The position numbers were made by a program, and so were the translations under genes. This document shows positions 3,209 through 37,516 of a stretch of DNA of 48,720 nucleotides, one piece after another; the first letter of the stretch is position 1; every line of letters starts with the position of its first letter. The stretch comes from a virus (Duplodnaviria > Heunggongvirae > Uroviricota > Caudoviricetes), in IMG/VR virus record IMGVR_UViG_2541047815_000004. The stretch is one strand, 5' to 3'. Under the pieces are notes generated by a model. It was not told the DNA's origin. It ran no database searches and was given only the letters and a program-made list of their open reading frames with translations.

Positions 3209-3305
3209 AAAATAATCTCGGTGTGAGATGCTTTACGTCTTCCAAGCCCCCTTCCTTGCCGTAAATGGAAAGATACATCTAATTATAGAATTTATATGTT
3301 TTACC

Positions 3306-3881
3306 CTACGGCAGTGCTGGCCATTCAATATCCTGTGCAGTTGACGTATCAACACGGTTCAGCAACACCCGATACTTTTTCCAGGCTTCCAGCAATGAGG
3401 TTTCTTCCTCCGTTGCGATTTCCAGATCTACAGCATCCTGAAGTGGCGCAATATGCTCACTGGCTACCTGCATCAGGCTGTTTTTTGTTTCTTCCGCCTC
3501 TCGGATCCGGAACAGTTTTTCTGCTTCTGCATCTTTCACCCAGGCTGTGCCGTTCCACTTCTGAAACTCCCCTTCCGGCGATAACCAGGTAACATTTTCC
3601 GGTAACGGACCGAGTTCAGAAATAAATAACGCGTCCCCTGACGCTACGTCATAAACCGTTTTACCCCGATGGTCTTCATCGAGATGCCACGATGCCTTAT
3701 CACTGTTGAAAACAGCCACAAAGCCAGCAGGAATATCTGGTGGTGCAATATCGGTACTGTTTGCTGGCAGACCTGTATGAGGCGGAATATATGCGTCACC
3801 TTCACCAATAAATTCATTAGTTCCGGCCAGCAGATTATAAATTTTTATGGTCCGTGGTTGTTCACTCATTCTGAATGCCAT
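3306..3881 (-). CDS. tfaQ: Tail fibre assembly protein (Tfa), 191 aa
   Basis: Immediately downstream of stf with a 1-nt stop/start overlap; sequence typical of lambda Tfa homologues. Confidence 0.8.
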
Positions 3882-6800: not shown

Positions 6801-7279
6801 CCGGCTGATGTGCTGGCTGCACGTGCTGAGCCTGCAGCATCAGTCGCATGGGTTGCCGCCTCACGGGCTGATGTGCCGGCATCGCTGGCTGACTTCTTCG
6901 CGGCTGCCGTGTTCTGTGCCACCGCGGACGCGTTACGCGCCACCTCTTCCACCATCAGTTCAAAACGGCGCAGTGCCTCAGGACGGGCATCATCCTCCGT
7001 CATGGCACCGAGAAAATCATTCAGCGTACCGGGTCGGGAATCTTCATACACGGTGATGGTCCCGGCATGTGACGGCGGGAATCCCTCCACCAACAGAATA
7101 ACGCTGTACTGCCCGTACTCAACGTCCATGCTGTAACGCCCGGCTTCATCCGGATTTTCTGAGGCCAGCGTGTTCACCACCACCGTGGTGCTGTTACGTT
7201 TTGCTTTCAGCTGGATTGTGCAGTTCTGTACCGGTTTTCCTGTGCCGTCTTTCAGTACACCTGAAATCTTTACTGCCAT
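3881..7279 (-). CDS. stfQ: Side tail fibre protein (Stf), about 1132 aa from the ATG at Met3 (track ORF starts at a GTG at 7285)
   Basis: N-terminus [12 protein letters not shown] matches lambda Stf; long Ala/Ser/Thr-rich repetitive middle; Gly/His-rich C-terminal tip ([21 protein letters not shown]). Confidence 0.85.
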
Positions 7280-7290
7280 ATTCACCCCAC

Positions 7291-7317
7291 AAAAAAGCCC
7301 GCCTGAACCGGCGGGCT
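7291..7317 (-). terminator. Intrinsic terminator-like hairpin between lom and stf
   Basis: 8-bp GC-rich stem AGCCCGCC/GGCGGGCT (7296-7317) with 6-nt loop, followed on the minus strand by U5; sits 27 nt after the lom stop and directly before the stf Shine-Dalgarno. Confidence 0.5.
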
Positions 7318-7343
7318 GTCATAACACTGTGTTACCTGGCTAA

Positions 7344-7943
7344 TCAGAATTTATAACCGACACCCACGATGAAACCGTCAGTGCGCCAGTCACCACTGCC
7401 GGAGCCTTCATAAGCAATATCAATGGCCACGGATTCGGTCGGGTTAAACTGCACGCCAGCCCCCCACGCCAGAGACGTGTTGCTGTGGCGACCGTCATCA
7501 CTTCCGGTCAGCACATCGTGCTTTTTCCCCTTGTTGTCAGTTACGCGAAGATAATCCCCGGAGAAAGTCGACACACGGCTGTAAGCTACACCCGCCATCG
7601 CATACGCGCTGAACCATTCATTCACGCGCACAGACGGCCCCGCCATTACGCTGAACCAGCGGTTACGAACGGAATCTTCATGCCAGCGGGTATCGCTGTA
7701 ACGGGTAAGCTGGCGATTCTTGTCTCCTGCATAGCTGAATGACGTCACCAGCCCCAGTGTGTCCGTAAACTCATAACGGTATTTCACGTTAATCCCGTTC
7801 AGATCATCGCTGCCGGGGACGTTCGTCGAGGCATGAAGATACCCCGCGCTCAGCGTGGACTGATGTTCAGACGCCCATGCAGGCGCACCGGATACGGCCA
7901 GACAAATGGCTGCGGACAAAATTGCTGCACAAACTTTACGCAT
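7344..7943 (-). CDS. lom: Lom-like outer membrane protein (Ail/Lom/OmpX family), 199 aa with signal peptide
   Basis: N-terminal signal peptide [24 protein letters not shown]; beta-barrel-like alternating pattern, C-terminal GYKF; lambda-like position between J and stf. Confidence 0.85.
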
Positions 7944-8013
7944 AATTACCTCTCGCTTTTCTGCAATAAAAAAGGCGTCATTCCTGACGCCCTTTATTGG
8001 GGTTATAAATATT

Positions 8014-11000
8014 TCAACGAATACTGATGCCGGAAGCGGCTTTTTTGGTCACAATCACCGTACAGTCGGTGATATTGCCTGCCCCCTGATTGCCTTTCTG
8101 GAAAATCTTAAACTCCAGAGTGACGCTTCCCCTGCCACTCGGCATATCAATAACTGCACTGTAACTACCGGGAATGGCCCCTTTAGTTTCTCTGGATGCG
8201 ATTAATACGCCGTTTTTGCGAACTTCAAAACCATAACCCGTGTATCGCGTGCCTCCTGGGTTATTTCCGCTCCCCGGATCGTCATACGCTATACCGTTAA
8301 AAATAATGGGCGGAATAATAATCTGGCGGTCAAAGTTATGATCATCGCTGATGGTGACTGTAACCGTACCGTTTGGTGTTTCCGTGTTACCCCACGTACC
8401 GACTTTTTTCGGGAAGGCTTTTGATACAGCTTTAACGAAATCTCCTCTGACCTGGGTCGCCTCCAGCATGCCCTTAATCGTACAGTTCTGGTTAATCGTG
8501 ACATTGTTGAGCGTTCCTGAGTTCGCATTCACACTGCCACTGATATCCGCATTTTTCGCCGTCAGTCTCCCGTCTGATGTCAGGGAAAATGCCGGAGGAT
8601 TACCGCCGCTGGTAATGGTGGGGGCCGTCAGGCGTTTCAGGAACACTTCATTCATGAATATCTGATCGCCCTGACCAACAAACATCGGCTTTGTGTTGCC
8701 ATTCGCAGGATTAATCATCGCAATCCTGTCTGCTGCCAGCAGCACCTGACTCTGCATGCCGTCAGGGGTGTTCTCAATACCGGCACCGATACCCGCAATA
8801 TAAAGGCGTCCGTCCTGCATCTGCTGCAGCTTCACTGCCCACATGCTGTTCAGGTTATTATTTGTATCAACCTGAACCTTCTGTATCTGCTGGATCGCTG
8901 CACTCTGGTCTTCCAGTTTCTTATTGACGGTCTGTGTTATTTCATTGCTGACATCCGTTATGGACGTCCTGATTTCAGTCAGGTCAGGCGCAAGCTGACC
9001 GTTATCAATCTGCGTCCACAGCTCCTGAGCCAGATGGGTTTTCCCTATCTCGCCTTTGAAAAAATCCAGATAGCCTGATGCATCATCACTCGGCTGACCG
9101 ACAGCCTCCACGAATGCCGATTTGCCAACGGTGTTCACACTGCGAACGTAAAAATAATAATCATGGCCCGGTTTGATATTGATACTGGCGGCTATCCAGT
9201 ACAGTGCCGTACCAAGATAACGCGCGCTGGTTTCAACCTGCCTGATATCCGCAATCCGTTTTTCCGAGAACCAGAACTCAAACTGTACCGTCGGGTCATA
9301 AACCGCAAGATGCGGCGTGGCGGTTATCTGAAAATAGCCCGGTGTCAGCTCAATCCGAGACGGCGCTGCCGGTGCGGCAATCCGGAACGATACCGATGCC
9401 GGATCGCCCTGCAGCCCCCACGCATTTACCGCCCGGACCGTCAGCATGTAACGCCCCAGCGCCAGTTGCGTGAAGCGGTATGTGGTTTCCGTCGTCCGGG
9501 CCGTGCTGACCAGCCGCTCACTGCCGTCATCCGCTGCCACGGTCAGGCGAAGCAGGAAGCTCACGCCCTTCACCACTTTCGGCGTGTCCCAGCGGGCCAG
9601 CACCTGGTATTCCCCGCTGTCTGCGGTGACTTCGGCAGTCAGGTGCTGCACCGCTGGCGGCGTGACACCATTCACCGTGCCGCTCTGGTCGCCGTCAAAG
9701 TGCGCCCCGTTATCCACGATGGCCTCTTTCTCCGGTACATGCTGCACGGCAGTGATGGCATACGTGCCGTCGTCGTTCTCACGGATACTCACGCAGCGGA
9801 ACAGGCGATGGCGCAACGTCGGCAACTTCAGCCCCCACACGCTGTATTCAGCAACGCCGTCAGGAACACGGCTCACTTTTACCTTCACGCCGTCGGTGAC
9901 GGACTGGACCTCCACGCTGACCGGATTACCCTCACCGTCAACCAGGCTTATCAGCGTGGTGCCGGAGGATGGCAGCGTGATTTCACGGTCGAGCGTCAGC
10001 GTCCGGGTCTGGCTGTTCACCGCCAGCACGCGACCACCGATGCTGATACCGGCATAGTCATCATCGCAGATTTCAATAACATCGCCCGGCACATGGCGAA
10101 GCCCTTCTGCGCCCACGCTGAAATCCACGGTCTGCGTTTCCAGCAGTTCCGTTTTAATCAGCCACAGCCCGGCTCGGTGTGCCTGCCCCCGGCTGGTACA
10201 GCCAAAGGCATCCATCTTCGTGACATTACGACCGTAACGGGCAATGGCCTGCGTATCTTCAACAAGCTCTGTCGCCGTCTCCCAGCCGTTGTTCGGGTCA
10301 ATCCAGTTCACCTCAACGGCATTATGGCGGTCCTTCAGGGCGCTGAAGCTGTAGCGGAACGGCGCGCCATCATCCGGCATCACCACATTACTGCGGTTAT
10401 AGGTCCACACCTTATCCGACTGTCGGTCCTGCACGAACGTCAGCGTCTGCCCGTTCCATACCGGCATACAGCGCATCGCCGAGCAGAAATCACTGAGCAC
10501 ATCCCACGCCTTGCGCTGTGTGGTCAGGTAAGCGTTACAGGTGATGCGCGGCTCCGTGCCGCCAAAGCCGTCCGGCACCGACTGGTCGCAATTCTGGCCG
10601 ATGACATACAGCGCCCATTTATCCACATCCGCCGCACCAAGACGTTTCCCCATGCCGTAGCGCGGATGGGTCAGCATATCCCACAGACACCAGGCCATGT
10701 TGTTGCTGTATGCCGGTTTTAACGTTCCGTCCCAGATACCGCTGTATTGCCGCGTCTGCGGGTTATAGTTCGACGGCACCTGCAGAATGCGCCCGCGAAG
10801 ATGATAATTACGGCTCACCTGCTGGCTGCCGAACTGCTCCGAGTCCACCTGCACGCCAACCAGTGCCGTGTTCGGGTAGCACTGTTTCACATCGATGATT
10901 TCGGTGTATGACGACCAGAGCGTTTTGTTCTGCAGCTGGTCTGTGGTGCTGTCCGGCGTCATCCTGCGCATCCGGATATTAAACGGGCGCGGCGGCAGGT

Positions 11001-19488: not shown

Positions 19489-19764
19489 TTACTCAATAAA
19501 GATCATTGGCTTACCGTTAAAACGTTCATGCCGTGTGACCGTCCATTGTTGTCCGTCATAAACAACGCGATCCCCGCGCCGTGGGCGGTATCCCGAAGAA
19601 AACACCACCAGAGAGACCGCAGGTCCGGACAGAGCATTCAGCTCTGCCAGTGTTTCTCCCGGGATCACAGTCATATCGACATCATTAATCGAGGCTGTCT
19701 TTCCCATCTTTCTGACCGTGATCGCATCCATACGCGCTGCCAGCCGGGAAAAGGGATCAGACAT
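19489..19764 (-). CDS. Head-tail joining/neck protein (FII-like position), 91 aa
   Basis: Small ORF between the head module and Z, where lambdoid phages encode head-tail connector proteins; no motif recognised. Confidence 0.45.
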   Translation of the reverse strand: MSDPFSRLAARMDAITVRKMGKTASINDVDMTVIPGETLAELNALSGPAVSLVVFSSGYRPRRGDRVVYDGQQWTVTRHERFNGKPMIFIE

Positions 19765-20080
19765 TGAGTTTTACCGGCACTTCTTCTGCACTGGTTCCGG
19801 CATCTGCCCAGACAACCCCGACCAGCGGATCAGAGCCGCTGTTAGTCAGCTGAACTTTTCCTGACTTCAGATAAACCTTCTTACCCGTTTTCATGTCATC
19901 CGTTTTCAGCTTAGGCAGCATAAACACACCTTCGGTTATGCCGTCGCCTGTTTCTCCCTGTGGAATATCGGTCAGCGCCACCGCAAAAACATCACCCACC
20001 TGCACCAGATCTCCGCTGCTGATGGCTGCACTGGCAACAATCGCCACCGTTTTTCCTTCTTCTACAAAATTCTTTGCCAT
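19757..20080 (-). CDS. Small capsid-associated protein (DUF2190-like), about 107 aa from Met16
   Basis: Directly downstream of the major capsid gene; GGAGA Shine-Dalgarno before the ATG at 20080; sequence pattern reminiscent of DUF2190 phage proteins. Confidence 0.45.
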   Translation of the reverse strand: MAKNFVEEGKTVAIVASAAISSGDLVQVGDVFAVALTDIPQGETGDGITEGVFMLPKLKTDDMKTGKKVYLKSGKVQLTNSGSDPLVGVVWADAGTSAEEVPVKLNV

Positions 20081-20122
20081 AACTGTCTCCGCACAGCCCC
20101 GTTCAGGGGCTGATTTCAGGTA

Positions 20123-20142
20123 CAAAAAAAGCCCTTACGGGC
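20123..20142 (-). terminator. Weak terminator-like hairpin after the capsid gene
   Basis: Short 4-bp GC stem GCCC/GGGC with UUAC-type loop followed on the minus strand by U7; 25 nt after the capsid stop. Confidence 0.3.
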
Positions 20143-20166
20143 CATCAGAGTTGTTGTCTGCGACGT

Positions 20167-22125
20167 TTACGCCGTACATTTCACCAGACCGCGGTGATCA
20201 ACTGGCGCAACACCAGCGTCAATACGCACTTTCGTTGTCACGCCATCCACACTGAAGCCCTCCATCTGATCAATATATGGCGTATCCACACCGTTGAGAT
20301 AAGCCACTTCAATCGTATCGGAGCCTTTGGACGCAGCCAGGTAGAAGGTGGTCTGGCTGTTATCATCAAGACGAGGCTCTGCAATAACGGTCGCAAAATC
20401 TTTCACCGGGTTAATAATACCGGCGTTAATGTCAGCCCCCTTGACACTTGAGGAGCGAATGACCTGGTTAGCAACAGACTCCATCGCCGTCGGTACCAGT
20501 ACGAACGCAGGACGAATATTCAGATGACGCTCACCCTCTTTCTGAACGCGCATCAACTGGCGGGCTTTATCCAGCGATGCCACGTCCATTGCCGCGCTCT
20601 CCAGTACGTTTGCATGTTTCGCTTTATCGAACAGACTTACATTATCTGTGGAGATTTTCGGGTTAGACGTCAGAATGGCATAAACCAGATCGGCAATAGT
20701 GGATTTCGCCGCACGGCCCAGCTTCATCGGGACATCGGTCAGCATATTCAGATCATCATTGATAATGGCCTGACGGGTGATACTGAACAGCTCGCCATAG
20801 GTCGCCAGTGCAATAGTGGCCTGTTTATCTCCGGTGGTGACGTATTTATATTCTGCCCCTTCACGCACCTGACGCAGAGCACTGAAGCCCCCCATACCCA
20901 CACGATGGGCAATTTTAAAATCAGACAACTGACCTTTCCGCGTCCACTGTTCATAGGTTTCAGGGGCATCTTCCCAGCCCTGCAGAATGGCTTTGTTCGC
21001 AACATCCAGCAGAATATTACCGAAGTCAGACGTACTGTGTGTGAACGCCGCACCGACCATCTGCATCGGGTTATAACTGGAAACACCAATACCACGTTCA
21101 GTCAGTGACATACGGGCATATTCACGCAGGGTCATCCCGTTGTAGACATTATCACGTTCAGTTTTTTCAAACCCGGCGCGCGCCATCAGCGCCTGGCGGA
21201 TCCCGTCCCCCACAAAATTACCGTTACCGGCATAAATATGAGCCGGGGTATTTTTATTGGATGGCGTGGACTCGCGCCCCATCTCGTTCAACAGCTTTTC
21301 GCGGGCCTGCTCCAGCGAACATTCAGGATCGGCAAGACACTGAGCCTGCAACGACTGATAACGCCCGCCAAACATGGCAAACAGATCATTAATACCGTTT
21401 ACACGCGCTTTTTGCTCTGCCAGGACCTGCGCACGGATGCTGTTTTCATCCACCACGGGTGCTGCTGCCTGCACTGGCGTCCGGGAGGCTGCAGGTCCAT
21501 CATCCTGTACGCGTGGAGCACTGTTGCGTGGCGGAGTAATCATATTTCGAATGGATTCCGGCATCTTTTTAAATTCCTCTGTACGTTTTGACTGAATACA
21601 TGCCATTGCCTTAACGGCTGGTGTCACCTGATCAGCAAATCCCTGTGCCAGACATTCGGCACCGGACATCCAGGTCTCATCCGCCAGCATGGCAGCAATT
21701 TCATCGGTGGTTTTCCCGGTTTTCTGTGCATAAGCGGGTAACAGAACCGCCTCAACTTTATCGAGCAGGTCGGCATAGGTGCGCATGTCCTCCGCATCAC
21801 CGCCCGTAAAGCCAAATGGTTTATGAATCATCATGAAGGAGTTTTCCGGCATAATGACCGGGTTTCCCACCATCGCAATGACCGACGCCATTGACGCCGC
21901 CACACCGTCGACATAAACGGTAATGGACGCACCATGTGTTTTCAGTGCATTAAAAATGGCGATGCCTTCAAAGACATCGCCACCCGGTGAATTAATATGG
22001 AGATTAATGTGGGTGATATCGCCCAGTGCATTCAGATCACTGATAAACTGCTTCGCCGTAACACCCCAGAAACCAATCTCGTCATAAATATAAATATCCG
22101 CGTCACTCTGGTGACCTGCCTGCAT
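20167..22125 (-). CDS. Fused prohead protease (ClpP-like) - scaffold-like linker - HK97-fold major capsid protein, about 652 aa from Met88
   Basis: N-terminal ClpP/S49-like motifs (INSPGGDVFEG, MIHKP), a coiled-coil Ala/Gln-rich middle and a C-terminal capsid-like domain; start chosen so that it overlaps the portal stop by 15 nt. Confidence 0.7.
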   Translation of the reverse strand: MQAGHQSDADIYIYDEIGFWGVTAKQFISDLNALGDITHINLHINSPGGDVFEGIAIFNALKTHGASITVYVDGVAASMASVIAMVGNPVIMPENSFMMIHKPFGFTGGDAEDMRTYADLLDKVEAVLLPAYAQKTGKTTDEIAAMLADETWMSGAECLAQGFADQVTPAVKAMACIQSKRTEEFKKMPESIRNMITPPRNSAPRVQDDGPAASRTPVQAAAPVVDENSIRAQVLAEQKARVNGINDLFAMFGGRYQSLQAQCLADPECSLEQAREKLLNEMGRESTPSNKNTPAHIYAGNGNFVGDGIRQALMARAGFEKTERDNVYNGMTLREYARMSLTERGIGVSSYNPMQMVGAAFTHSTSDFGNILLDVANKAILQGWEDAPETYEQWTRKGQLSDFKIAHRVGMGGFSALRQVREGAEYKYVTTGDKQATIALATYGELFSITRQAIINDDLNMLTDVPMKLGRAAKSTIADLVYAILTSNPKISTDNVSLFDKAKHANVLESAAMDVASLDKARQLMRVQKEGERHLNIRPAFVLVPTAMESVANQVIRSSSVKGADINAGIINPVKDFATVIAEPRLDDNSQTTFYLAASKGSDTIEVAYLNGVDTPYIDQMEGFSVDGVTTKVRIDAGVAPVDHRGLVKCTA

Positions 22126-22138
22126 CCTGAACCAGGAA

Positions 22139-23647
22139 TTATTCTTCGGACTGGTCGTCGGTGTGCTGCGGCTCCTGTCGTTTCGTTGCGGCACTGCTGC
22201 CTCCTTTATCACTGGCCGGATCGGTATCAAATACCAGATCCAGCTTGCGGTTTTCATCAATTTCGGCCTTGCGCCGACGTTTGACATCATCTGGATTACG
22301 ACCACCTGCACGTACCCAGTCTGATTCTGTCGCCGCTCCACCACGAATCTGAATTTTCCAGGCCTCAGCCTCCTTAACAGGGTCAATCCACGGCATCACC
22401 GGTCCGGAATACACCGCGGTATACAGTGAAGATCGGTCCAGATCGCGGGGTAGCCTGATAACACCGGATGCCACAGCCTGTTTCAGCCAGGCACGGTACA
22501 TCGGGCGGGTGACGGCACCAATAAACCAGTCCTGCAGGATCAGGTAGCCATCAGTAGATTCAACCAGCTCCTGACGCTGGGCGCTGTAAGTGCCGTTATA
22601 GTTGCGCGCTGTACTGGAAAAACTCAGACGACTGCCCGCAGCCACGGCACGCAACTGACCATTACGAAAAGTTTCAAGGTTAGGATTGGGGCGATCCGAC
22701 TTCACCATTCCGATTTCTTCGCCGGGTTTCAGATCGTCGTAAATAATGCCTGGCTGAATGGTAAGCTCGCGTTCATTCTCCTTGCTGTCATTACCATCCG
22801 TTTCATAGCTCTGTCCGTCGCCTTTCCGGATGTACATCCCCAGAGCAGCGGCGATCCTTGCTGCAGTCAGCTCAGAATCTTCATACTCTTTCAGAGCACT
22901 GAGGCGGATCAGCACACCGGACAACAAAGACGTCCCGCGCATCTGGTGCAGACGGCGAACAAATTTAAGATGCAGCATTCGCTCTGCATCCACTTCTTTG
23001 GTTTCCATCTGCCGCCCGGATACGGGACGGCTTTTATACACCAGATATTTTTCGGGACGCCCCCAGTCATCAACAAACACGCCCTGATTCAGCCTGTTGC
23101 TCTCATCACTGGTCATGGGAATAAAGTCCGGCTCGAGCGCCTCCAGCCAGAAATGAACACCGGCAGAAGGCGTCAGGCTGTTTATGCGCCCGGAAACCAT
23201 CTGGGCAAACACCTCACCATCGCGCAGCCAGGTACGCAGCATCAGACGTTCCAGCATCGGACGGGTAAACTGCCCGGTGACCTCCGGACTGACAGACCAT
23301 TCACTCCATCGGGTACGTATCTCCGCTGCCAGATCACGGGCAATGGCCCCATTGCGTAATACCGGATGTGGCTCGACAATAATCCCGTTTTTCCCCACCA
23401 CCCGTTCTTCCAGCTTGTCAAATACACCAATGACCAGATCGTGGTTGTTATCAAGGTAACGGGCCTGCTCACGTAACGACACGGCCCCGTACTGGCTTAA
23501 CTGGTCGGCAGTTCGGCTCTCCCGTCGGGCTTTGTGTGTCCGCGTCGTTTTTACGGCCTCATAAGCCTGGATCACCGCACGGGAACGCAGCCTTGCCGCT
23601 TTCCATCCTGGTGAAAAAACGCCAATCACATCATCAAGAATTGCCAT
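22139..23647 (-). CDS. Portal protein (lambda gpB-like), about 502 aa from Met25
   Basis: Size and position between W/terminase and the protease-capsid gene; acidic C-terminus; ATG overlaps the W stop by 1 nt. Confidence 0.8.
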   Translation of the reverse strand: MAILDDVIGVFSPGWKAARLRSRAVIQAYEAVKTTRTHKARRESRTADQLSQYGAVSLREQARYLDNNHDLVIGVFDKLEERVVGKNGIIVEPHPVLRNGAIARDLAAEIRTRWSEWSVSPEVTGQFTRPMLERLMLRTWLRDGEVFAQMVSGRINSLTPSAGVHFWLEALEPDFIPMTSDESNRLNQGVFVDDWGRPEKYLVYKSRPVSGRQMETKEVDAERMLHLKFVRRLHQMRGTSLLSGVLIRLSALKEYEDSELTAARIAAALGMYIRKGDGQSYETDGNDSKENERELTIQPGIIYDDLKPGEEIGMVKSDRPNPNLETFRNGQLRAVAAGSRLSFSSTARNYNGTYSAQRQELVESTDGYLILQDWFIGAVTRPMYRAWLKQAVASGVIRLPRDLDRSSLYTAVYSGPVMPWIDPVKEAEAWKIQIRGGAATESDWVRAGGRNPDDVKRRRKAEIDENRKLDLVFDTDPASDKGGSSAATKRQEPQHTDDQSEE

Positions 23648-23865: not shown

Positions 23866-25955
23866 CCTCCGGAAGTCAGCCAGGGGTTAACATCGTCAGT
23901 TACTGTTTTCTTCCGTTTTTGTTTTTTAACAGGCGTGGGTACCGGTTCCGGTGAGGGTGACGGTTCGGTACTGTCCGGGACACACTCCAGCCAGGTTTCC
24001 CGGCTCGCCCACTCCGGTGCATCCGGCCAGCGGATCTTTTCGTATCCATGCAGAATGACCAGAGCCTCGGCATACACCATCAGGTCAAAAGCTTCGTTGG
24101 CACCGCGACCCGGCTTACTCCATTTCCCTTCACTGCTCCGCTCTTCATACGTCAGTTCGTCGTAAAACCAGCTCCCCAGCCAGTCAGGGAAATGCACATA
24201 GCCTGGACCTGGCGAGTCACGCCATAACGCGTTATTCACCCGGTCTTTCAGGGCATCCGTCTGAAGAAGCCAGAGCGGCACATCACCTGCGGCCTGCGCC
24301 CGGCGGCCCGTTCGTCCGGTGTTATCAGGGAATGTACGGCTGATCAGTTTTGCGCGCCGGATGCTGTCGCCCTTAAACAGGTAAATACGTTTACCAAGGC
24401 CATCACGACGGCAACGACGCCAGAATTTATAGGCATTATCAGTGACCCCGTCTTCACCGCCGGAGTCCACCGCCATTGCCATCAGTCGCATTTGTTGAGA
24501 AGGATCGGAGGCCAGCGGCCAGCTTTTATGAAAAACATCCGTCAGCAGGACATCCCAGTCTTCCGGATAGCTGGCCGGATCAATTCGCTGGCTCTCCCCG
24601 TCGCAGTCACTGCGCAATGACTGCGTGATGTTGTAACGATCAATAATCCAGCGTTCGCCACGGCTGCCATAGCCCGTTACCTGAACCACAAAACGGCGAT
24701 GACGTCCCGCCTGCACATCCACTGTCGCCACAAGGAAATTAACGCCATCCGGAACACTGCGGGAAGGAACTGGCTCTGCCCGCTGCTCAAGCAGTTCACT
24801 TTTTCGTTGCTCCATGCTGGCACGAGGAAGATAAGGCAATCCCCAGTCGGTGTTGATAACCGCCCTGAGTGTTTCTTCGCTTCCTGTCGCTTCATACTCC
24901 TGTTCTGCAGTCAGTAATTTGTAAACCAGTTGCGCCCAGGTCTGATACGCAGCAGCTGGCCCTTCCATCCAGAAACTGGCGATACGGGAGCGGCGCGGTT
25001 CACCGGAAACGTTGCCGTTACGATCAATGACCTGACCTTCACGCAACCAGACTCCTGCACTATTGAGCTCACGCTTTTTCTCCGCAGTGATAATGCCGCT
25101 GCAGTGCGGGCAAAGTAGATACGCCGCCTCACTGGCTTTAAAGGGATCCGGTTCATTACGGTAGCCGGTCATGGCATCCATAGCTGGCTGAAAATATTCA
25201 CCGCAGTGCGGACATGGCCAGTACCAGCGGCGGCGGTCACCACGATTGTAAAGGGAAAGAATACCAGTCGTCGGTGGCGCTTCATGAGGCGACTTACGTC
25301 GCCATTTGCTGTCGCAGATGTCACGTCCCGGCGAGCTCTCCACCAGAGTCATCCCGGCGGACATAAATGTGGTGGTACGTTTTGAGGCCAGGGAGAAACC
25401 ATCACCCTCGCTGTCGATATTCTCCGGAAAACGGTCGTAATCGGTTAAGGCGACAAACCGGTAATCCGACGACGACATAATGTTGACCGAGGGCCAACCA
25501 ATTTTAAGGAACGAGCCATCCCTGAACGTCTTATCATGGACATTATTGTCGTTACGACGTGGACTCATTCTTTTCTTTACCGCCGCACTGCTTCTGAACG
25601 TTCTGTCGAGGCGCTTTTTAGAATGCTCGCGGGCCTTATCTTCGGTCATCTGCACAACGAGCATGTCCGAAGGATCGCAAACGATGGTATAGACAATCCA
25701 TCCATCGATCAGACCAATGGTCTTCCCTGTTCGCGCAGGACCAACAAAAATCACCGCATCGTATTCACGCGATGCCAGGCAGTTCATGGGCTCAATGATG
25801 TAGGGTGTCAGTTCAGGATCCCATGGCACCGAGTTACCAGCCCCCTTGGGAACACGCATGAATTTTTTAACAGCCTCCGAAATCGGCATGCGACGTGGTG
25901 GGGAAAATCCTGCCGATATGTCCCTTCCCAAATTTCGGGCTGATGAAAAACCCAT
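23856..25955 (-). CDS. Terminase large subunit (lambda gpA family), 699 aa
   Basis: Walker A (VGPARTGKT), Cys cluster CPHCGEY...CPHC, C-terminal nuclease-like domain; size near lambda gpA. Confidence 0.9.
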   Translation of the reverse strand: MGFSSARNLGRDISAGFSPPRRMPISEAVKKFMRVPKGAGNSVPWDPELTPYIIEPMNCLASREYDAVIFVGPARTGKTIGLIDGWIVYTIVCDPSDMLVVQMTEDKAREHSKKRLDRTFRSSAAVKKRMSPRRNDNNVHDKTFRDGSFLKIGWPSVNIMSSSDYRFVALTDYDRFPENIDSEGDGFSLASKRTTTFMSAGMTLVESSPGRDICDSKWRRKSPHEAPPTTGILSLYNRGDRRRWYWPCPHCGEYFQPAMDAMTGYRNEPDPFKASEAAYLLCPHCSGIITAEKKRELNSAGVWLREGQVIDRNGNVSGEPRRSRIASFWMEGPAAAYQTWAQLVYKLLTAEQEYEATGSEETLRAVINTDWGLPYLPRASMEQRKSELLEQRAEPVPSRSVPDGVNFLVATVDVQAGRHRRFVVQVTGYGSRGERWIIDRYNITQSLRSDCDGESQRIDPASYPEDWDVLLTDVFHKSWPLASDPSQQMRLMAMAVDSGGEDGVTDNAYKFWRRCRRDGLGKRIYLFKGDSIRRAKLISRTFPDNTGRTGRRAQAAGDVPLWLLQTDALKDRVNNALWRDSPGPGYVHFPDWLGSWFYDELTYEERSSEGKWSKPGRGANEAFDLMVYAEALVILHGYEKIRWPDAPEWASRETWLECVPDSTEPSPSPEPVPTPVKKQKRKKTVTDDVNPWLTSGGWL

Positions 25956-25963
25956 TATTCCTC

Positions 25964-26491
25964 CTAGAGACTCTCTCCTTCCTCATCAGGAATTAATTCA
26001 GCAGCACAAGCCTCGTAGGATTTTTCCTGAAGAGTGTATCGCAGGTCATCAATGGCCTGCTGTACAACGCCGACGGCCTGAGGAGTCAGGGCGCAATCGC
26101 GTTCAAGAACATCCGGAATTGTCTCCAGAACCTGGACGACAGCCTTTCTCATGGACGAATAGACGATGACTACTTCATCAACTGGGATGAGTTTTCGCTG
26201 CTCCTTTTCCAGCTTGATCCTTTCATTTTCAGACTGGTACCAGTCCTTTCTCTCTTTCGGCTCCATACGGGATGGATCATGAACAGAGTCTGCTGCCTCA
26301 TGCTTCACACTAAACAGGGCGGGCCCGACATGCTGCAGGGCGTAAACGGGGTTCCCCCTGACAGTCGCAGCCACAGGAGTGTTGGCCGCGAGGAGCCGTT
26401 TTTTTACTGTGTCCCGGTGAAGCCCAAAGGCCTCGGCGATTTTAAAAACACTCCAGTAATAAGCATCACCGATCCCGCTCACATTTGACAT
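25964..26491 (-). CDS. Terminase small subunit (Nu1-like), about 175 aa from Met5
   Basis: N-terminal HTH-like segment (SVFKIAEAFGLHRDTVKKRL); immediately upstream of the large terminase; GGAG Shine-Dalgarno before the second ATG. Confidence 0.7.
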   Translation of the reverse strand: MSNVSGIGDAYYWSVFKIAEAFGLHRDTVKKRLLAANTPVAATVRGNPVYALQHVGPALFSVKHEAADSVHDPSRMEPKERKDWYQSENERIKLEKEQRKLIPVDEVVIVYSSMRKAVVQVLETIPDVLERDCALTPQAVGVVQQAIDDLRYTLQEKSYEACAAELIPDEEGESL

Positions 26492-26669
26492 AAGCAACTC
26501 CATCTGGCAGGTGAAAATCAGGTTTATTTATATATTTCAATTAATTGCAAACTGGTCTAATGACAGGGAGAAAAAAATATTGTACAGGTGAAAAGAGAAA
26601 TAACTTTTAATTATCAATAAATTACCAAACATGCTGCCGCCGCCATGGAAATGCAAAAACTAGTCTTTT

Positions 26670-26690
26670 TCCGCGACGCTCCCGCCCCGT
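26670..26690. other. Candidate cos site (cosN-like cohesive-end region)
   Basis: On the minus strand the sequence reads ACG-GGGCGGGAGCGT-CGCGGA, resembling lambda cos ACG-GGGCGGCGACCT-CGCGGG; it lies about 196 nt upstream of the Nu1-like start (lambda: 190 nt); lambda cos is quoted from memory. Confidence 0.5.
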
Positions 26691-26867
26691 GGCAGGGGCC
26701 CCCACCGGGAGGACCCGACAGCCTGACAGCCGTGACGAGCATCTGATACAGCGCTTTACATAATGGCATAGGAATAATTCAGAAGGACATCACAGCATGC
26801 CTACACAAATTAGTGTGAGTGTCCTGTTTCTTCCTACGCACAGGACTGACGAGCATGAGGGGAAAAT

Positions 26868-27035
26868 ATGCGAACCATAAATGCCTCATCTTCAGCAATG
26901 CAACCGGCATCCGAACAGGACGATATTGTAAATTCACCTAATTACGAGGACATTGCAGTAGTTGAATTGCAGCTCTGTATTAGCCTGACAGTGACAGAAT
27001 GCGATATTGACTCTGTCACAGGTGAAATAGTTTGA
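26868..27035 (+). CDS. Candidate 55-aa acidic small protein (MRTINASSSAMQPASEQDDIVNSPNYEDIAVVELQLCISLTVTECDIDSVTGEIV)
   Basis: ATG with GAGGGG Shine-Dalgarno 5 nt upstream; below the 60-aa cutoff of the ORF track; no homologue recognised. Confidence 0.25.
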   Translation: MRTINASSSAMQPASEQDDIVNSPNYEDIAVVELQLCISLTVTECDIDSVTGEIV

Positions 27036-27055
27036 ATGATTAGCAGTTATGGTGC

Positions 27056-27262
27056 TCAGTCAACCACCAGGGAATAATCCTTCGAATTCTTATCGTGCTT
27101 CACCAACGCTGCCTCAATTGCCCTGAATGCTTCCAGAGACACCTGATGTTCTATACATGCAATTACAACATCCGGGTAACTCATAGAAATGGTGCTATTA
27201 AGCATATTTTTTACACGAATCAGATCCAACGAGAGTTCATCAGCAGATTGTTCTTTATTCAT
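27056..27262 (-). CDS. ynfO: Small prophage protein YnfO-like, 68 aa
   Basis: Recognised from memory as a Qin small protein; position between terminase and ydfO. Confidence 0.5.
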
Positions 27263-27562
27263 TTTGTCGCTCCATGCGTTTGCTCGTCATCTAGCGGTTA
27301 AAATATTACTTCAAATCTTACTGCATAAAAGAGGAAAAGTATGAAAGTTTGAGTACATCGACCTTACATACATCTGTCGGTTGCATATCCCTCCTGGATG
27401 CCAGCAAGGCTCAATTTTGTTACGCAATCAACACTATTCATTAAAAACAGGCTTAATATTTAACATAAATCATCAACAAAACACAAAGAGGTCAGACCAG
27501 ATTGAAACAATAAACACGATAATGCTAACTACGCGCCATCGTATCACATGGAAGGTTTACCA

Positions 27563-27973
27563 ATGGCTCAGGCTGCCATTTTTAAAGAAATATTCGATCA
27601 AGTGCGTAAAGATTTAAACTGTGAATTATTTTATTCTGAGCTAAAACGTCACAATGTCTCACTTTATATTTACTATTTAGCCACAGATAATATTCACATT
27701 GTGTTAGAAAACGACAACATAGTGTTAGTAAAAGGACTCAAAAAGGTTGTAAATGTTAAATTCTCCAGAAACAAACATCTTATAGAGACCTCCTATAATA
27801 AGTTGAAATCAAAAGAAATCACATTTCAACAATACAGGGAAAATCTTGCTAAAGCAGGAGTTTTCCGATGGGTTACAAATATCCAGGAACACCAAAGATA
27901 TTACTATGCCTTTGATAACTCATTACTATTTACTGAAAGCATCCAGAAAACTACACAGATCTTACCACGCTAA
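27563..27973 (+). CDS. ydfO: YdfO (DUF1398) prophage protein, 136 aa from Met6
   Basis: Sequence [33 protein letters not shown]... recognised as YdfO. Confidence 0.7.
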
Positions 27974-28124
27974 ACCATAACGTCCGGCTTCTCTCACTCC
28001 TGAGCCGGACTGCATTGGTTTAATAAAAACCATCAACAATTGTGATTTAGATATTCGGAACCATTCAAATATAACAAAACCCCGTAAAAACGAGGTTTAT
28101 GGATAAATTTTATTATTGAATACA

Positions 28125-28298
28125 TCAGATTAAATTAATCTTGACATCATAGCTTTCAAGACCCGTCATTTTTTCCCGTGCGGTAAACTGAATACTGGTA
28201 ACTTCTTTCCCGGTCTTTTTCTTAAGTTCAATAATTTTTTTTGTTATATATTCAGAAATATCTGCTTCTGCTTTTGTTTTTAAGTTTTCAATATTCAT
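28125..28298 (-). CDS. gnsB: GnsB-like small protein, 57 aa (alternative ATG at 28301)
   Basis: Hand-translated: MNIENLKTKAEADISEYITKKIIELKKKTGKEVTSIQFTAREKMTGLESYDVKINLI; AAGAGGA Shine-Dalgarno; not in the ORF track because it is under 60 aa. Confidence 0.6.
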   Translation of the reverse strand: MNIENLKTKAEADISEYITKKIIELKKKTGKEVTSIQFTAREKMTGLESYDVKINLI

Positions 28299-28764: not shown

Positions 28765-28971
28765 CTTCATTTTCACTTTTTTAAATCCAACGACAGACGG
28801 CTGGCATTTAAGTATTGTGAAATATTATCAAATGTAATCATCATTGATTTACAAAAGATACATTTTGCCCCGAAAGGATTCATGTCAGAAACATCAAAAG
28901 ATGATGTTCTATACTGGGAACCATGACAACACGGGCATCTAAAGTGAATATGGTTTGTAATATTGTCTACC

Positions 28972-29184
28972 TCAAAGCGCCACTACATGAACAGCGGCAG
29001 GACCTTTAGGTCCGTTCTCAATACCAAATTCAACTTCCTGATTCTCAGTTAATGTTTTGAAATCGTTGCTCTGAATTGCTGAGAAATGGACAAACACATC
29101 TTTGCTGCCATCTTTCGGCGTGATGAAACCAAAACCTTTTTCAGGGTTAAACCATTTCACTAAACCAGTCATTTTGTTAGACAT
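28972..29184 (-). CDS. cspI: Cold shock protein CspA family, 70 aa
   Basis: Cold-shock-domain motifs KWFN..KGFGFI and VHFSAI; recognised as CspI. Confidence 0.9.
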
Positions 29185-29546
29185 AATTATTACCTTTTGA
29201 AGAAATTAGCCCTTGGGCAGAATGGTCCGAAAAAAAATATCAGAGAGAAAAACCAACAAGGAAATCTCAAGAGGTACAAATAATAAAATTATAACAATGA
29301 CTGCTTCAGATAAATTTGTAACAAACCAGAACACCATTAACGCATGATTAACCACCCATAGCAAGGATTACTTTTGTAAAGAAAAACACAGCAATGAAAG
29401 AATAGCTTTATTTATTAATAAAACGTGTCATTCTGATTAAGACCTTTTATCTTGCCCTTAAGATTTCAGGAATTTTGGCTCATGGAAGAGTCCTTTTTAT
29501 TTAAATTTTACATTCCGCGATGTAAATGTTCCGATTTAATATTACC

Positions 29547-32836: not shown

Positions 32837-33117
32837 GAGATTGTGGTGCTTTTTGTGGGAGTCATCCACTTACGCACTTTGTTTTGCGATGCCAGCAGTT
32901 AGCTTCTGCTGTGAAACTATTCATGCAGCAAACCTGCACTTCACCACAATGGTTAGCATACTTTTCCTGATTAAGATTTTGCCAAATATGCTAGCCATTG
33001 TTTCATGTATTGGACCTCCTTACTTTTTATTAAAGAGATCCAATATTCACTACTCTGTCCGTATCTCTACTCAGGCATCAGCCTTCTTCGTTATCGTATA
33101 CAGACGAGCGATGAATT

Positions 33118-33333
33118 TTAATCAGTAATGATGACATTTGCTGCTGCAGGACCTTTAGCACCACTCTCTATAGAGAAGGTAACCTTTTGACCTTCAAATA
33201 AGGTTCGATAATTATCATTCTGAATCGCAGAAAAATGCACAAACACATCTTTACTACCATCAACAGGAGAAATAAAGCCGAAACCTTTATCAGCGTTAAA
33301 CCATTTTACTAAACCAGTCATTTTATTTGACAT
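33118..33333 (-). CDS. cspB: Cold shock protein CspA family, 71 aa
   Basis: Cold-shock-domain motifs; recognised as CspB. Confidence 0.9.
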
Positions 33334-33633
33334 TCTACATTCCTTAACTTGAGCCTTTCGGCATAAATGGTTTGCATAACAGAAACGACTTCGTACTTAA
33401 TTGGAGAGACTCAAAGAAGGAATAAGTGAATAACACCTGAAATGAGAACTGCTTTAGTAAACTACTTCGTATATCGTCTGTTCTTCAAACCGACGCAATC
33501 ATTAACGCATAGTTGAACATATGAAGCAATGTTTATTTTAGACATCCAGCCATCTTCAACCCCATCAAAAAACTATAGCTTTCTTCAGGAACGTGTGTAT
33601 AGTGCGCCAAGTTATCAGTATTAAGGAATTTTT

Positions 33634-36897: not shown

Positions 36898-37053
36898 TTA
36901 CTCCTCAGGTTCGTAAGCTGTGAAGACAGCGACCTCCGTCTGCCCGGTTCGGATTCGTACCTCGCAGAGGTCTTTCCTCGTTACCAGTGCCGTCACTATG
37001 ACGGTTAAACAGATGACGATCAGGGCGATTAACATCGCCTTTTGCTGCTTCAT
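36898..37053 (-). CDS. hokD: Hok-family type I toxin, 51 aa
   Basis: MKQQKAMLIALIVICLTVIVTALVTRKDLCEVRIRTGQTEVAVFTAYEPEE; AAGGAG Shine-Dalgarno; in-frame upstream extension in the track ORF. Confidence 0.85.
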   Translation of the reverse strand: MKQQKAMLIALIVICLTVIVTALVTRKDLCEVRIRTGQTEVAVFTAYEPEE

Positions 37054-37516
37054 AGCCTGCTTCTCCTTGCCTTTCGGCACGTAAGAGGCTAGCCTACATG
37101 TGTCTAGCATGAAATTGGCCTCAGATTAATGTTAAGCGTCTTGCAGGACGCGTAATGTTAACTGGGGCTTTTCTCTATCTGCCGTTGGTGTTCATGCCCG
37201 AGGCAGATACGTCAGTGATTCAATACAACTATTGGGTATAGTTCCTCTGATTTTTTCTGTGGAAATGGGGCACAACCACTAGTCACCACCAGCACTTCTT
37301 TTAATACGCAAAGTCCGACACAAGCTAACCTTCTAGTCCGCTTTGAGCGAGGAACGGACGTTGTATAGGTTAGTTAGCGCATCCTCATGAATTGGTGTTC
37401 CTTAAGAGATTCATAACGAAGCGTTTGCATCGGCGGTAGTGTTTATAATCGGTATGAGCCCCCGAGAGGGCTCACATTTCAAATGTATTACGAGGTTACG
37501 CTCAATTAGAAACTTC

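What the first reader, a model, noticed from the sequence alone, without database searches (positions are those of the whole stretch)
20167..22125. Single gene fusing ClpP-like prohead protease, scaffold-like linker and HK97-fold major capsid protein
The head module is not lambda-like (no D, E or Nu3). One long ORF begins with a ClpP/S49-type protease domain (INSPGG, MIHKP), continues through an Ala/Gln-rich coiled-coil segment and ends in a capsid-like domain. Autoproteolytic release of the capsid domain would be required. The arrangement shows mosaicism of a lambda-like tail with an HK97-like head.
Basis: partly seen in the sequence, partly recalled or inferred. Interest (0 to 1): 0.4.

Follow-up and report, generated by a model that had tools for sequence, protein, structure and literature searches.

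The report
Known phage protease-scaffold-capsid fusion gene
This E. coli prophage makes its head-shell protein as one long chain joined to its own assembly scaffold and trimming protease; this was already described for Salmonella phage Gifsy-2, and about four in ten complete E. coli genomes carry the gene.

Summary
One minus-strand ORF encodes three parts. The first is a ClpP-like serine protease (Pfam CLP_protease, E 2.8e-36, Ser101/His124 kept). The second is a disordered spacer plus a short helical scaffold-like segment. The third is an HK97-fold capsid domain (Pfam Phage_capsid_4, E 7e-55; AlphaFold model matches HK97 and other capsid shells). It scores 984 bits against NCBIfam NF045540, [quoted passage not shown] (cut-off 475). 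It is 70% identical over 669 residues to the Gifsy-2 "tripartite capsid gene" (Effantin 2010) and 99.5% identical in DNA to phage mEp460. It occurs in 2125 of 5426 complete E. coli genomes.

Corrections:
- The likely start is GTG 22194 (AAGGAGG 5 nt upstream), not ATG 22125.
- The protease is S14/ClpP-type, not S49.
- The head is Gifsy-2-type, with a lambda-family portal and terminase and a cement protein. It is not HK97-type.

One lead may be new. Met211 (ATG 21564), with a Shine-Dalgarno motif upstream, is conserved across distant relatives that carry two unrelated proteases. This suggests a nested scaffold-capsid product, as in lambda C/Nu3.

The parts
20167..22194 (-). Complete coding sequence (675 codons plus stop at 20167-20169) of the ClpP-like prohead protease / scaffold / major capsid fusion protein.
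   Evidence: ORF list. Start-codon scan. RefSeq CDS at the same coordinates in a collinear E. coli prophage. NF045540, 984 bits against a cut-off of 475. phrog_133 matched end to end.
22200..22206 (-). Shine-Dalgarno AAGGAGG, 5 nt upstream of GTG 22194. It lies inside the 3' end of the portal gene.
   Evidence: Read directly from the sequence. It is the only strong SD among candidate 5' starts.
22139..22194 (-). 56-nt overlap between the end of the portal gene (22139..23647) and the start of the fusion gene, in different frames.
   Evidence: Synonymous diversity of codons 1-10 of the fusion gene is 0.02 against a gene mean of 0.134, as expected for dual coding.
21622..22104 (-). ClpP-like (MEROPS S14-type) serine protease domain, residues 31-191. 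The catalytic Ser101 codon is 21892-21894 and the His124 codon is 21823-21825. Asp172 is nearly invariant.
   Evidence: Pfam CLP_protease, E 2.8e-36. NF045542 'head maturation protease, ClpP-related', 217 bits. Solved ClpP 1y7o_A, E 8.4e-16, with GxAASM and IHxP aligned. Residue positions. D172 conservation.
21562..21564 (-). In-frame ATG for Met211, the candidate internal start of a 465-residue scaffold-capsid product (inferred).
   Evidence: Met in 124 of 126 aligned homologues and in 75 of 84 distant loci. It is the best-SD internal ATG in 50 of 75 genes, against 6.9% expected by chance. It sits at the junction with either a ClpP or an S78 protease domain.
21575..21579 (-). GAGGA, a Shine-Dalgarno-like motif 10 nt upstream of ATG 21564 (inferred internal ribosome-binding site).
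   Evidence: The equivalents are GAGGAG in Gifsy-2 and AGGAG in Pseudomonas phage CF145a and Stenotrophomonas phage S1. Codons 201-210 have synonymous diversity 0.02 against a mean of 0.134.
21217..21621 (-). Linker, residues 192-326. It comprises a conserved junction peptide, a hypervariable Pro/Ala/Thr spacer (about 220-249), a three-helix scaffold-like core (residues 250-308, nt 21271-21447) and a disordered stretch (309-326) where the maturation cut is expected.
   Evidence: AlphaFold secondary structure and pLDDT. Composition. Alignment of linkers. Weak similarity to lambda gpC/Nu3. The cut site was not determined.
20170..21216 (-). HK97-fold major capsid protein domain, residues 327-675.
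   Evidence: Pfam Phage_capsid_4, E 7.1e-55. Solved Mu-GpT-type capsid proteins 8rkx/8rkc, E 2e-4. Model pLDDT mostly 80-93. The 50 Foldseek PDB matches listed are all HK97-fold capsid or encapsulin shells, including HK97 Head II 2ft1_G at E 3.8e-8.
20120..20143 (-). Terminator-like hairpin GGCCCGTAAGGGC followed by a T-run, 24 nt after the stop codon and before the decoration gene.
   Evidence: Consensus scan. The same element is annotated as a rho-independent terminator in mEp460. Function was not tested.
19757..20080 (-). Capsid cement/decoration protein gene (107 aa, DUF2190), the partner of the capsid gene in this head type.
   Evidence: Pfam Phage_cement_2, E 4.3e-20. phrog_122 'head decoration'. 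62% identical to the Gifsy-2 neighbour. The same gene follows the fusion gene in Gifsy-2, S1 and metagenomic contigs; in CF145a a small unnamed ORF sits there.
22139..23647 (-). Lambda-family portal protein gene immediately upstream.
   Evidence: TIGR01539 portal_lambda, 456 bits. 23% identical to lambda gpB, E 8e-9.

Best explanation
This is the capsid gene of a Gifsy-2-type head module in a lambdoid E. coli prophage whose head genes are almost identical to phage mEp460. One 675-residue polypeptide carries three parts: an N-terminal ClpP-like serine protease, a central scaffold-like segment, and a C-terminal HK97-fold major capsid domain.

Inferred pathway, by analogy with Gifsy-2, HK97 and lambda. 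The chains assemble on the lambda-family portal into a procapsid, with the protease and scaffold parts inside. The packed proteases then cut away roughly the first 310-330 residues. The shell expands during DNA packaging, and the neighbouring DUF2190 cement protein binds the outside.

Shown here: the domain make-up, the fold, orthology to the Gifsy-2 gene, the gene order and the wide distribution. Inferred: the cleavage, the cut site and the capsid geometry. Also inferred: a conserved ribosome-binding site and ATG at Met211 probably give a second, protease-free scaffold-capsid product from the same reading frame.
For: - Domains: CLP_protease E 2.8e-36 and Phage_capsid_4 E 7.1e-55. NF045540 scores 984 bits against a cut-off of 475, and NF045542 217 bits. 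phrog_133 matches end to end.
- Active site: catalytic Ser and His align with solved ClpP.
- Fold: the capsid domain is modelled at pLDDT 80-93 and matches only HK97-fold shells, including HK97 itself.
- Orthology: 70% identity over 669 residues to the Gifsy-2 gene, and 62% for the decoration protein.
- Literature: Gifsy-2's prohead protease and coat genes are described as fused (PMC12315714). The Gifsy-2 capsid carries a trimeric cement protein at the 3-fold axes (PMC8538268). The same three-in-one gene is described for Pseudomonas phage MD8 gp5 (PMC8508860).
- Gene order: large terminase, small W-position gene, portal, fusion gene, then a small downstream gene (Phage_cement_2 or 'head decoration' where named) is shared with Gifsy-2, mEp460, Pseudomonas phage CF145a and Stenotrophomonas phage S1.
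- Function: the gene is 99.5-99.9% identical in DNA to the isolated phages mEp460 and mEp460_ev081.
- Distribution: 2125 of 5426 complete E. coli genomes carry it, annotated under this very name.
Against: - Nothing here contradicts the assignment.
- Limits: no protein-level data were available for this phage.
- The Effantin 2010 paper could not be read. Its content is taken from citing papers and from my recollection of its abstract.
- The maturation cut site is unknown.
- The protease domain was poorly modelled (pLDDT mostly below 55). I attribute this to the alignment being dominated by relatives with an unrelated protease. The ClpP assignment therefore rests on sequence, not on the model.
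- Homology of the linker to lambda Nu3 is only weakly supported.
Confidence: 0.93

Rival explanations
1. Single-product reading. Only the full-length 675-residue chain is made, so every capsid subunit brings its own protease. On this view the conserved Met211 and upstream GGAG-like motif reflect a protein-level constraint, such as a cleavage or docking site. Alternatively they are a relic of the boundary between two once-separate genes.
For: - In the enterobacterial group the motif is only GAGGA at a long 10-nt spacing. Its pairing energy ranks in the top 8-14% of positions in its own gene, not at the extreme.
- The residues around Met211 (KRTEEFKKMPESIRNM) are also conserved as protein in this group. 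Low synonymous diversity there could reflect recent recombination.
- 9 of 84 distant loci lack the Met.
- All four apparent stand-alone scaffold-capsid genes that I checked were contig-truncated or frameshifted fusions.
- No paper I could read mentions an internal start.
Against: - In the distant S78-type relatives the residues flanking the Met are hypervariable, yet the ATG is kept with GGAG or AGGAG mostly 5-10 nt upstream. This holds in 74 of the 75 genes that keep the Met.
- It is the best-SD internal ATG in 67% of genes, against 6.9% by chance.
- The site is exactly where two unrelated protease domains join the shared scaffold-capsid module.
- BLASTP aligns it with lambda gpC Met309, which has AGGAGG 4 nt upstream.
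Confidence: 0.4
2. Artefact. The protease and capsid genes are really separate, and the long ORF arises from a sequencing or assembly frameshift.
For: None found. One frameshifted relative exists (L170, GCA_000755365.1). This shows that such errors or mutations tend to split the gene rather than fuse it.
Against: - The same uninterrupted ORF occurs in 28 independently sequenced phage records and in 1988 E. coli genomes.
- It also occurs in about 75 loci with only 31-38% capsid-domain identity, from many proteobacterial genera.
- 115 of the best 150 cluster representatives are 600 aa or longer.
- A curated NCBIfam model exists for the fusion.
Confidence: 0.01
3. HK97-type head module. On this view the head genes are members of the HK97 family, joined by recombination to a lambda-type tail.
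For: - The capsid domain has the HK97 fold.
- The scaffold function is fused to the capsid protein, as with the HK97 delta domain.
- The tail genes Z and U are about 50% identical to lambda.
Against: - The protease is ClpP-like, not Peptidase_S78.
- The capsid Pfam family is Phage_capsid_4, with a partial Mu-like gpT match, not the HK97 family.
- The portal is lambda-family.
- A cement protein gene is present, which HK97 lacks according to established knowledge of HK97.
- The closest characterised relative is Gifsy-2.
Confidence: 0.03

Closest known systems
Salmonella phage Gifsy-2 'tripartite capsid gene' (STM1034.3n in NC_010393; Effantin et al. 2010, Virology 402:355)
   Same: - 70% identical over 669 residues, with the same three parts in the same order.
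- The same neighbours: lambda-family portal upstream, a DUF2190 decoration gene (62% identical) and a Gifsy-2-family FII-like gene downstream, followed by a lambda-like tail.
   Different: - The spacer after Met211 differs in length and sequence.
- The annotated Gifsy-2 N-terminus is about 10 residues longer.
- The host and the rest of the prophage differ. This one sits at the Qin site of E. coli and its head genes are essentially those of mEp460.
NCBIfam NF045540, 'ClpP-like prohead protease/major capsid protein fusion protein' (the RefSeq/PGAP product name)
   Same: The protein scores 984 bits against a cut-off of 475, over profile positions 2-651 of 652. The same 2028-nt gene (100% identical) carries this name in RefSeq genomes.
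   Different: Nothing. This is the family it belongs to.
Pseudomonas phage MD8 gp5 and relatives such as vB_Pae_CF145a (PMC8508860)
   Same: A single 693-residue gene is described as encoding protease, scaffold and HK97-fold capsid protein. CF145a is 56% identical over 97% of the query, with the same gene order and the same Met with AGGAG.
   Different: The host is different. The MD8 authors relate the protease part to lambda gpC by HHpred. No internal start is discussed.
NF045541 'prohead protease/major capsid protein fusion protein', e.g. Stenotrophomonas phage S1 gp8
   Same: The scaffold and capsid parts are homologous (399 bits over residues 220-672; 36% identity in the capsid domain). 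The gene order is the same, with a decoration gene downstream. The Met and SD are conserved at the junction.
   Different: The N-terminal protease is Peptidase_S78, the HK97 gp4 type and an unrelated fold, not ClpP-like.
Phage lambda head genes C/Nu3, D and E
   Same: - Lambda-family portal and terminase.
- A protease of the same broad ClpP/SppA superfold.
- A scaffold that follows the protease in the same reading frame, with a nested in-frame start (Shaw and Murialdo 1980, cited in PMC8508860).
- A decoration protein gene and an HK97-fold capsid protein (established knowledge of lambda).
   Different: In lambda the capsid protein E is a separate gene and D lies between C and E. There is no detectable sequence similarity to D or E. 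Similarity to the Nu3 region is only marginal.
Phage HK97 gp4 protease and gp5 capsid protein
   Same: The capsid fold is the same (2ft1_G, E 3.8e-8). The scaffold function is fused to the N-terminus of the capsid protein and removed by the phage protease.
   Different: HK97's protease is a separate S78 gene. Its scaffold (delta) domain is 102 residues. It stabilises the shell by cross-links rather than by a cement protein (PMC8538268).

Membership tests
Gifsy-2-type tripartite capsid protein (NF045540) | Whole-protein score above the curated family cut-off | tested here: met
   984 bits against a cut-off of 475, over profile positions 2-651 of 652.
Gifsy-2-type tripartite capsid protein (NF045540) | One uninterrupted reading frame spanning protease, linker and capsid domain | tested here: met
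   ORF 20167..22194 has no internal stop. The same holds in 28 phage records and 1988 E. coli genomes.
Gifsy-2-type tripartite capsid protein (NF045540) | N-terminal ClpP-like serine protease domain with the catalytic Ser and His | tested here: met
   CLP_protease, E 2.8e-36. Solved ClpP, E 8.4e-16, with Ser101 in GVAASM and His124 in MIHKP aligned to the ClpP active-site motifs.
Gifsy-2-type tripartite capsid protein (NF045540) | Central segment with a scaffolding role | tested here: inconclusive
   A three-helix segment at residues 250-308 is modelled at pLDDT 77-86. It is conserved across both fusion families. Similarity to lambda Nu3 is weak: BLASTP E 0.007, hhalign E 0.0015 with probability 17%. 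Scaffold function itself cannot be tested with these tools.
Gifsy-2-type tripartite capsid protein (NF045540) | C-terminal HK97-fold major capsid domain | tested here: met
   Phage_capsid_4, E 7.1e-55. AlphaFold pLDDT 80-93. The 50 Foldseek matches listed are all HK97-fold shells.
Gifsy-2-type tripartite capsid protein (NF045540) | Close sequence relationship to the characterised Gifsy-2 protein | tested here: met
   470 of 669 residues identical (70%), collinear from residue 18 to 674.
Gifsy-2-type tripartite capsid protein (NF045540) | Head-module gene order: lambda-family portal upstream, cement/decoration gene downstream | tested here: met
   (and 35 for the position of the downstream gene in CF145a).
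Gifsy-2-type tripartite capsid protein (NF045540) | Proteolytic removal of protease and scaffold to leave the mature capsid protein in a T=7 decorated shell | not testable with these tools
   This needs virion proteomics or cryo-EM. It is inferred from Gifsy-2, which citing papers describe as fused and decorated by a trimer at the 3-fold axes.
HK97-type head module | Peptidase_S78 prohead protease | tested here: not met
   There is no S78 match. The protease is ClpP-like.
HK97-type head module | Capsid protein in the HK97 gp5 sequence family | tested here: not met
   The Pfam matches are Phage_capsid_4 and a partial Mu-like gpT. HK97 is matched only at the fold level, with 13% identity.
HK97-type head module | Shell stabilised by covalent cross-links, with no decoration protein | tested here: not met
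   A Phage_cement_2 / 'head decoration' gene follows the capsid gene. Cross-linking itself was not tested.
Lambda-type head module | Lambda-family portal and large terminase | tested here: met
   TIGR01539, 456 bits. TerL against gpA: 24% identity, E 9e-21. Portal against gpB: 23% identity, E 8e-9.
Lambda-type head module | Separate gpE capsid gene and gpD decoration gene recognisable by sequence | tested here: not met
   There is no significant BLASTP match to E or D. The capsid domain is fused to the protease gene.
Lambda-type head module | S49 protease gene with an in-frame nested scaffold gene (C/Nu3) | tested here: inconclusive
   The protease is S14-like and the SppA match is marginal. 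A candidate nested start exists at Met211, which aligns with lambda gpC Met309. Its use is unproven.

The most novel reading that the evidence does not exclude
The 'fusion gene' may really be two nested genes in one reading frame. Ribosomes would start at GTG 22194 to make the protease-scaffold-capsid chain. They would also start at a conserved internal site (GAGGA, 10 nt, then ATG 21564, Met211) to make a 465-residue scaffold-capsid chain without the protease.

The short product would resemble HK97 gp5 with its delta domain. The arrangement would be the lambda C/Nu3 design extended through the capsid gene. It would let the phage set the number of proteases per procapsid.

The same ATG with a GGAG-type motif is kept in distant relatives whose N-terminal protease is either ClpP-like or the unrelated S78 type. 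I found no mention of this in the papers I could read. I could not read Effantin 2010, so it may already be noted there.
Probability: 0.55. Interest if true: 0.45.

Novelty: already known. Interest (0 to 1): 0.2.

Why it matters
As stated, the finding adds nothing new. The three-in-one capsid gene was published for Gifsy-2 in 2010 and noted again for Pseudomonas phage MD8 in 2021. It has its own NCBI family model and product name, and it sits in about 39% of complete E. coli genomes.

Three things from this check are practically useful:
1. A corrected start codon.
2. A clearer label for the head type: Gifsy-2-type, neither lambda- nor HK97-type.
3. A testable lead. If the conserved internal start at Met211 is used, thousands of prophage annotations miss a second product. 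It would also explain how a phage whose every capsid subunit is encoded behind a protease controls the protease dose.

Tried and rejected
- **Effantin 2010.** I tried to read it by PubMed id, but it is not held. Its content is cited second-hand and from memory.
- **Literature on an internal start and on lambda Nu3.** One search was swamped by 'GPCR' matches. The 'gpNu3' search gave only passing citations. Two broader searches found nothing on a nested start.
- **Natural stand-alone scaffold-capsid genes starting at the Met211 equivalent.** Candidates of 443-471 aa begin with 'MP...' (P0236, P0347, P0332, P0326, P0447). Each proved to be a fusion cut by a contig end, with the frame open upstream where upstream DNA exists, or a frameshifted copy (L170). 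They give no independent support.
- **Full-length AlphaFold model.** I used a mixed alignment. The protease domain came out at low confidence. I think this is because 104 of the 126 rows carry an unrelated S78 domain there. I did not rerun it, because the sequence evidence for ClpP is already strong.
- **Decoration protein.** The model reached only pLDDT 60 and a profile search of solved structures found nothing. The Foldseek hits are to capsid auxiliary proteins of phiCD508, Sf11, T1, HFTV1 and Pam3. They are weak (best E 0.011) and should be read as a hint only. Fold similarity to lambda gpD was neither shown nor excluded.
- **First locus scan with the mixed alignment.** It returned only close relatives (74-100% identity). 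I repeated the scan with the S78-type alignment to reach distant ones.
- **RNA folding around the internal ATG.** The region is slightly less structured than shuffled controls (z = +1.14). This is not significant.
- **Exact source of the window.** I assumed it was E. coli SCU-102, but it is only 87-99% identical in blocks. It is the same kind of prophage at the same site in another strain.
Full report
**What is there**

The reported interval lies on the minus strand. The stop-to-stop ORF runs 20167..22386.

That ATG has no ribosome-binding site. Twenty-three codons upstream, GTG 22194 is preceded by AAGGAGG at a 5-nt spacing. RefSeq uses this GTG for the identical gene in other E. coli genomes (675 aa, WP_001136588.1).

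Residues 18-23 (NNSWFR) are conserved in Gifsy-2 and in Pseudomonas phage CF145a, whereas Met24 is Ile in both. I therefore take 20167..22194 as the gene. It overlaps the end of the portal gene by 56 nt. All residue numbers below count from GTG 22194.

**Domains**

- *Protease.* Pfam gives CLP_protease at residues 31-191 (E 2.8e-36). NCBIfam gives 'head maturation protease, ClpP-related' over the same part (217 bits). Solved ClpP structures match at E 8.4e-16, with Ser101 (GVAASM) and His124 (MIHKP) aligned to the ClpP active-site motifs. The S49/SppA match is marginal, so the protease is S14-like.
- *Capsid domain.* Pfam gives Phage_capsid_4 at residues 377-672 (E 7.1e-55). Sequence search also finds solved Mu-GpT-type capsid proteins (E 2e-4).
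- *Whole protein.* It scores 984 bits against NF045540, 'ClpP-like prohead protease/major capsid protein fusion protein' (cut-off 475). PHROG 133 matches end to end.

**Structure model**

An AlphaFold model built on 126 sequences gives the capsid domain (about 327-675) at pLDDT mostly 80-93. It gives a three-helix segment at 250-308 at pLDDT 77-86, flanked by disordered stretches at about 220-249 and 309-327.

Foldseek against the PDB lists only HK97-fold shells among its best 50 matches. These include HK97 Head II itself (2ft1_G, E 3.8e-8).

The protease part was poorly modelled. I think this is because most alignment rows carry a different protease there. Its assignment rests on sequence.

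**It is a known thing**

The protein is 70% identical over 669 residues to the Gifsy-2 gene product. Citing papers describe Gifsy-2 as having fused prohead protease and coat genes (Effantin et al. 2010). They also describe a trimeric cement protein at the 3-fold axes of its capsid.

The downstream 107-residue gene (19757..20080) is 62% identical to its Gifsy-2 counterpart. It belongs to Pfam Phage_cement_2 and to the PHROG 'head decoration' family.

Pseudomonas phage MD8 gp5 is described in the same terms: protease, scaffold and capsid protein in one gene (PMC8508860).

The DNA is 99.5-99.9% identical to phages mEp460 and mEp460_ev081. The gene is present in 2125 of 5426 complete E. coli genomes under exactly this product name. 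A library of cluster representatives at 50% identity holds 2787 clusters matching the scaffold-capsid part at E 1e-30 or better. Of the best 150, 115 are 600 aa or longer.

A frameshift artefact is excluded. The long ORF is kept in about 75 loci from other Proteobacteria, at only 31-38% identity in the capsid domain.

**Surroundings**

The window is a lambdoid prophage at the Qin site. It is flanked by a ydfJ fragment at one end and ends at the integrase gene at the other, with dicB, DicF, hokD/sok and cold-shock genes inside.

| Gene | Relationship to lambda |
|---|---|
| Portal | lambda-family, TIGR01539 456 bits; 23% identical to gpB |
| Large terminase | 24% identical to gpA, E 9e-21 |
| Tail Z | 49% identical |
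| Tail U | 53% identical |
| W-position, decoration and FII-position genes | no significant BLASTP match to W, D or FII |
| Capsid part of the fusion gene | no significant match to gpE |

'Lambda-like tail joined to a different head' is therefore right. The head, however, is the Gifsy-2 type, which itself shares its portal and terminase family with lambda. It is not an HK97-type module: the protease is not S78, the capsid sequence family differs, and a cement gene is present.

**How it most likely works**

Shown: the domain order, the conserved active-site residues, the fold, orthology to Gifsy-2, and the conserved gene order.

Inferred, from established knowledge of HK97, lambda and Gifsy-2:
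- The chains assemble on the portal with protease and scaffold inside.
- The proteases then remove about the first 310-330 residues.
- The shell expands and the cement protein binds.

The cut site cannot be fixed here. The best guess is the disordered stretch at 309-327. It lies upstream of the first block that is conserved across families, around Arg339 to Arg361.

**A lead beyond the finding: a possible nested start at Met211**

1. *The Met is conserved.* Met211 (ATG 21564) is one of very few nearly invariant positions in the linker. It is Met in 124 of 126 aligned homologues and in 75 of 84 distant loci.
2. *Its neighbours are not.* In the distant relatives the residues around it are hypervariable. 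Even so, GGAG, AGGAG or GAGGA lies mostly 5-10 nt upstream of the ATG.
3. *The SD signal is strong.*
   - The median pairing energy to the 16S tail is -6.6 kcal/mol.
   - The median rank is in the top 3.3% of all codon positions of the same gene.
   - It is the best-SD internal in-frame ATG in 50 of 75 genes, against 6.9% expected by chance.
4. *It sits at a module junction.* The domain upstream of this Met is ClpP-like in 41 of 70 genes and Peptidase_S78, an unrelated fold, in 25. The Met marks the junction between interchangeable proteases and a shared scaffold-capsid module.
5. *Synonymous variation is suppressed.* In 65 unique enterobacterial sequences, the ten codons before Met211 have synonymous diversity 0.02 against a gene mean of 0.134. 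That is as low as the portal-overlap codons 1-10.
6. *It aligns with a lambda site.* BLASTP aligns Met211 with lambda gpC Met309, which has AGGAGG 4 nt upstream. RefSeq starts Nu3 at Met239, which has no good SD.

All this fits a nested 465-residue scaffold-capsid product, analogous to lambda C/Nu3.

Cautions:
- In the window's own group the motif is modest (GAGGA at a 10-nt spacing; top 9% of positions).
- The flanking peptide is also conserved as protein in this group.
- The sequences are related, so the counts are not independent events.
- No protein data exist.
- The apparent stand-alone versions I checked were truncated or frameshifted fusions.

I put this reading at about 55%.

**Verdict**

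The feature is already known and very common, so interest is low. The corrected start codon, the corrected head-type label and the nested-start hypothesis are the useful by-products.

Noticed in passing
window 21562-21579 (-); also L003, L006, L007, L088-L166: A conserved in-frame ATG (Met211) with a GGAG-type motif upstream lies at the protease/scaffold junction. It is kept across relatives that carry either a ClpP-like or an S78 protease. This suggests a nested scaffold-capsid product that is not annotated in any record I fetched.
   Followed up: yes
L005 (lambda NC_001416) 5132 and 5342: RefSeq starts lambda Nu3 at Met239 of gpC (nt 5132), which has no good Shine-Dalgarno motif. The in-frame Met309 (nt 5342) has AGGAGG 4 nt upstream and is the residue that BLASTP aligns with Met211 of the window protein. 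I could not settle from the papers held which start lambda actually uses.
   Followed up: partly
L006 (Stenotrophomonas phage S1 gp8) and proteins P0121-P0240: A second fusion family (NF045541) has a homologous scaffold and capsid part but an HK97-type S78 protease in place of the ClpP-like one. The same capsid module has therefore been joined to two unrelated proteases.
   Followed up: partly
window 22139-22194 (-); proteins P0003-P0017 and P0043-P0044: The portal and capsid genes overlap by 56 nt in different frames. Public assemblies contain 1135-1159-residue 'portal + protease + capsid' proteins at 99-100% identity. I suspect these are single-base frameshift errors or mutations in this overlap that merge the two genes.
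   Followed up: no
window 20120-20143 (-): A terminator-like hairpin with a T-run lies 24 nt after the capsid stop codon and before the decoration gene. It is annotated as a rho-independent terminator in mEp460. It could lower expression of downstream genes relative to the capsid gene.
   Followed up: partly
window 1-48720: The window is a lambdoid prophage at the E. coli Qin site, running from a ydfJ fragment to the integrase gene. It carries Qin-type cargo. Rfam finds IS009 RNA (3340-3538, -), two cspA thermoregulators (28945-29330 and 33102-33494, -), the sok antitoxin (37048-37214, -) and DicF (43893-43944, +). Unlike K-12 Qin (from my own knowledge of K-12), it has a complete head and tail gene set.
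   Followed up: partly
window about 3416-8482, 25859-28127 and 37209-39981: These stretches have little or no match to the otherwise collinear prophage of E. coli SCU-102, which is 96-99% identical elsewhere. These are mosaic replacements in the tail-fibre region, the region beyond the large-terminase gene, and the early region. Base composition drops to 36-40% G+C at 27-30 kb and 32-34 kb.
   Followed up: no
window 19757-20080 (-): The decoration protein has no sequence similarity to lambda gpD. A low-confidence model (pLDDT 60) weakly resembles auxiliary capsid proteins of phiCD508, Sf11, T1, HFTV1 and Pam3 rather than gpD.
   Followed up: partly
L170 (GCA_000755365.1, BBMQ01000056.1) 2411-4386: In this relative the ClpP-like protease (201 aa) and the scaffold-capsid part (443 aa, starting at the Met211 equivalent) are called as separate genes. 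The homologous junction peptide is still readable upstream of the Met in the capsid frame. This looks like a frameshifted copy in a decayed prophage.
   Followed up: partly
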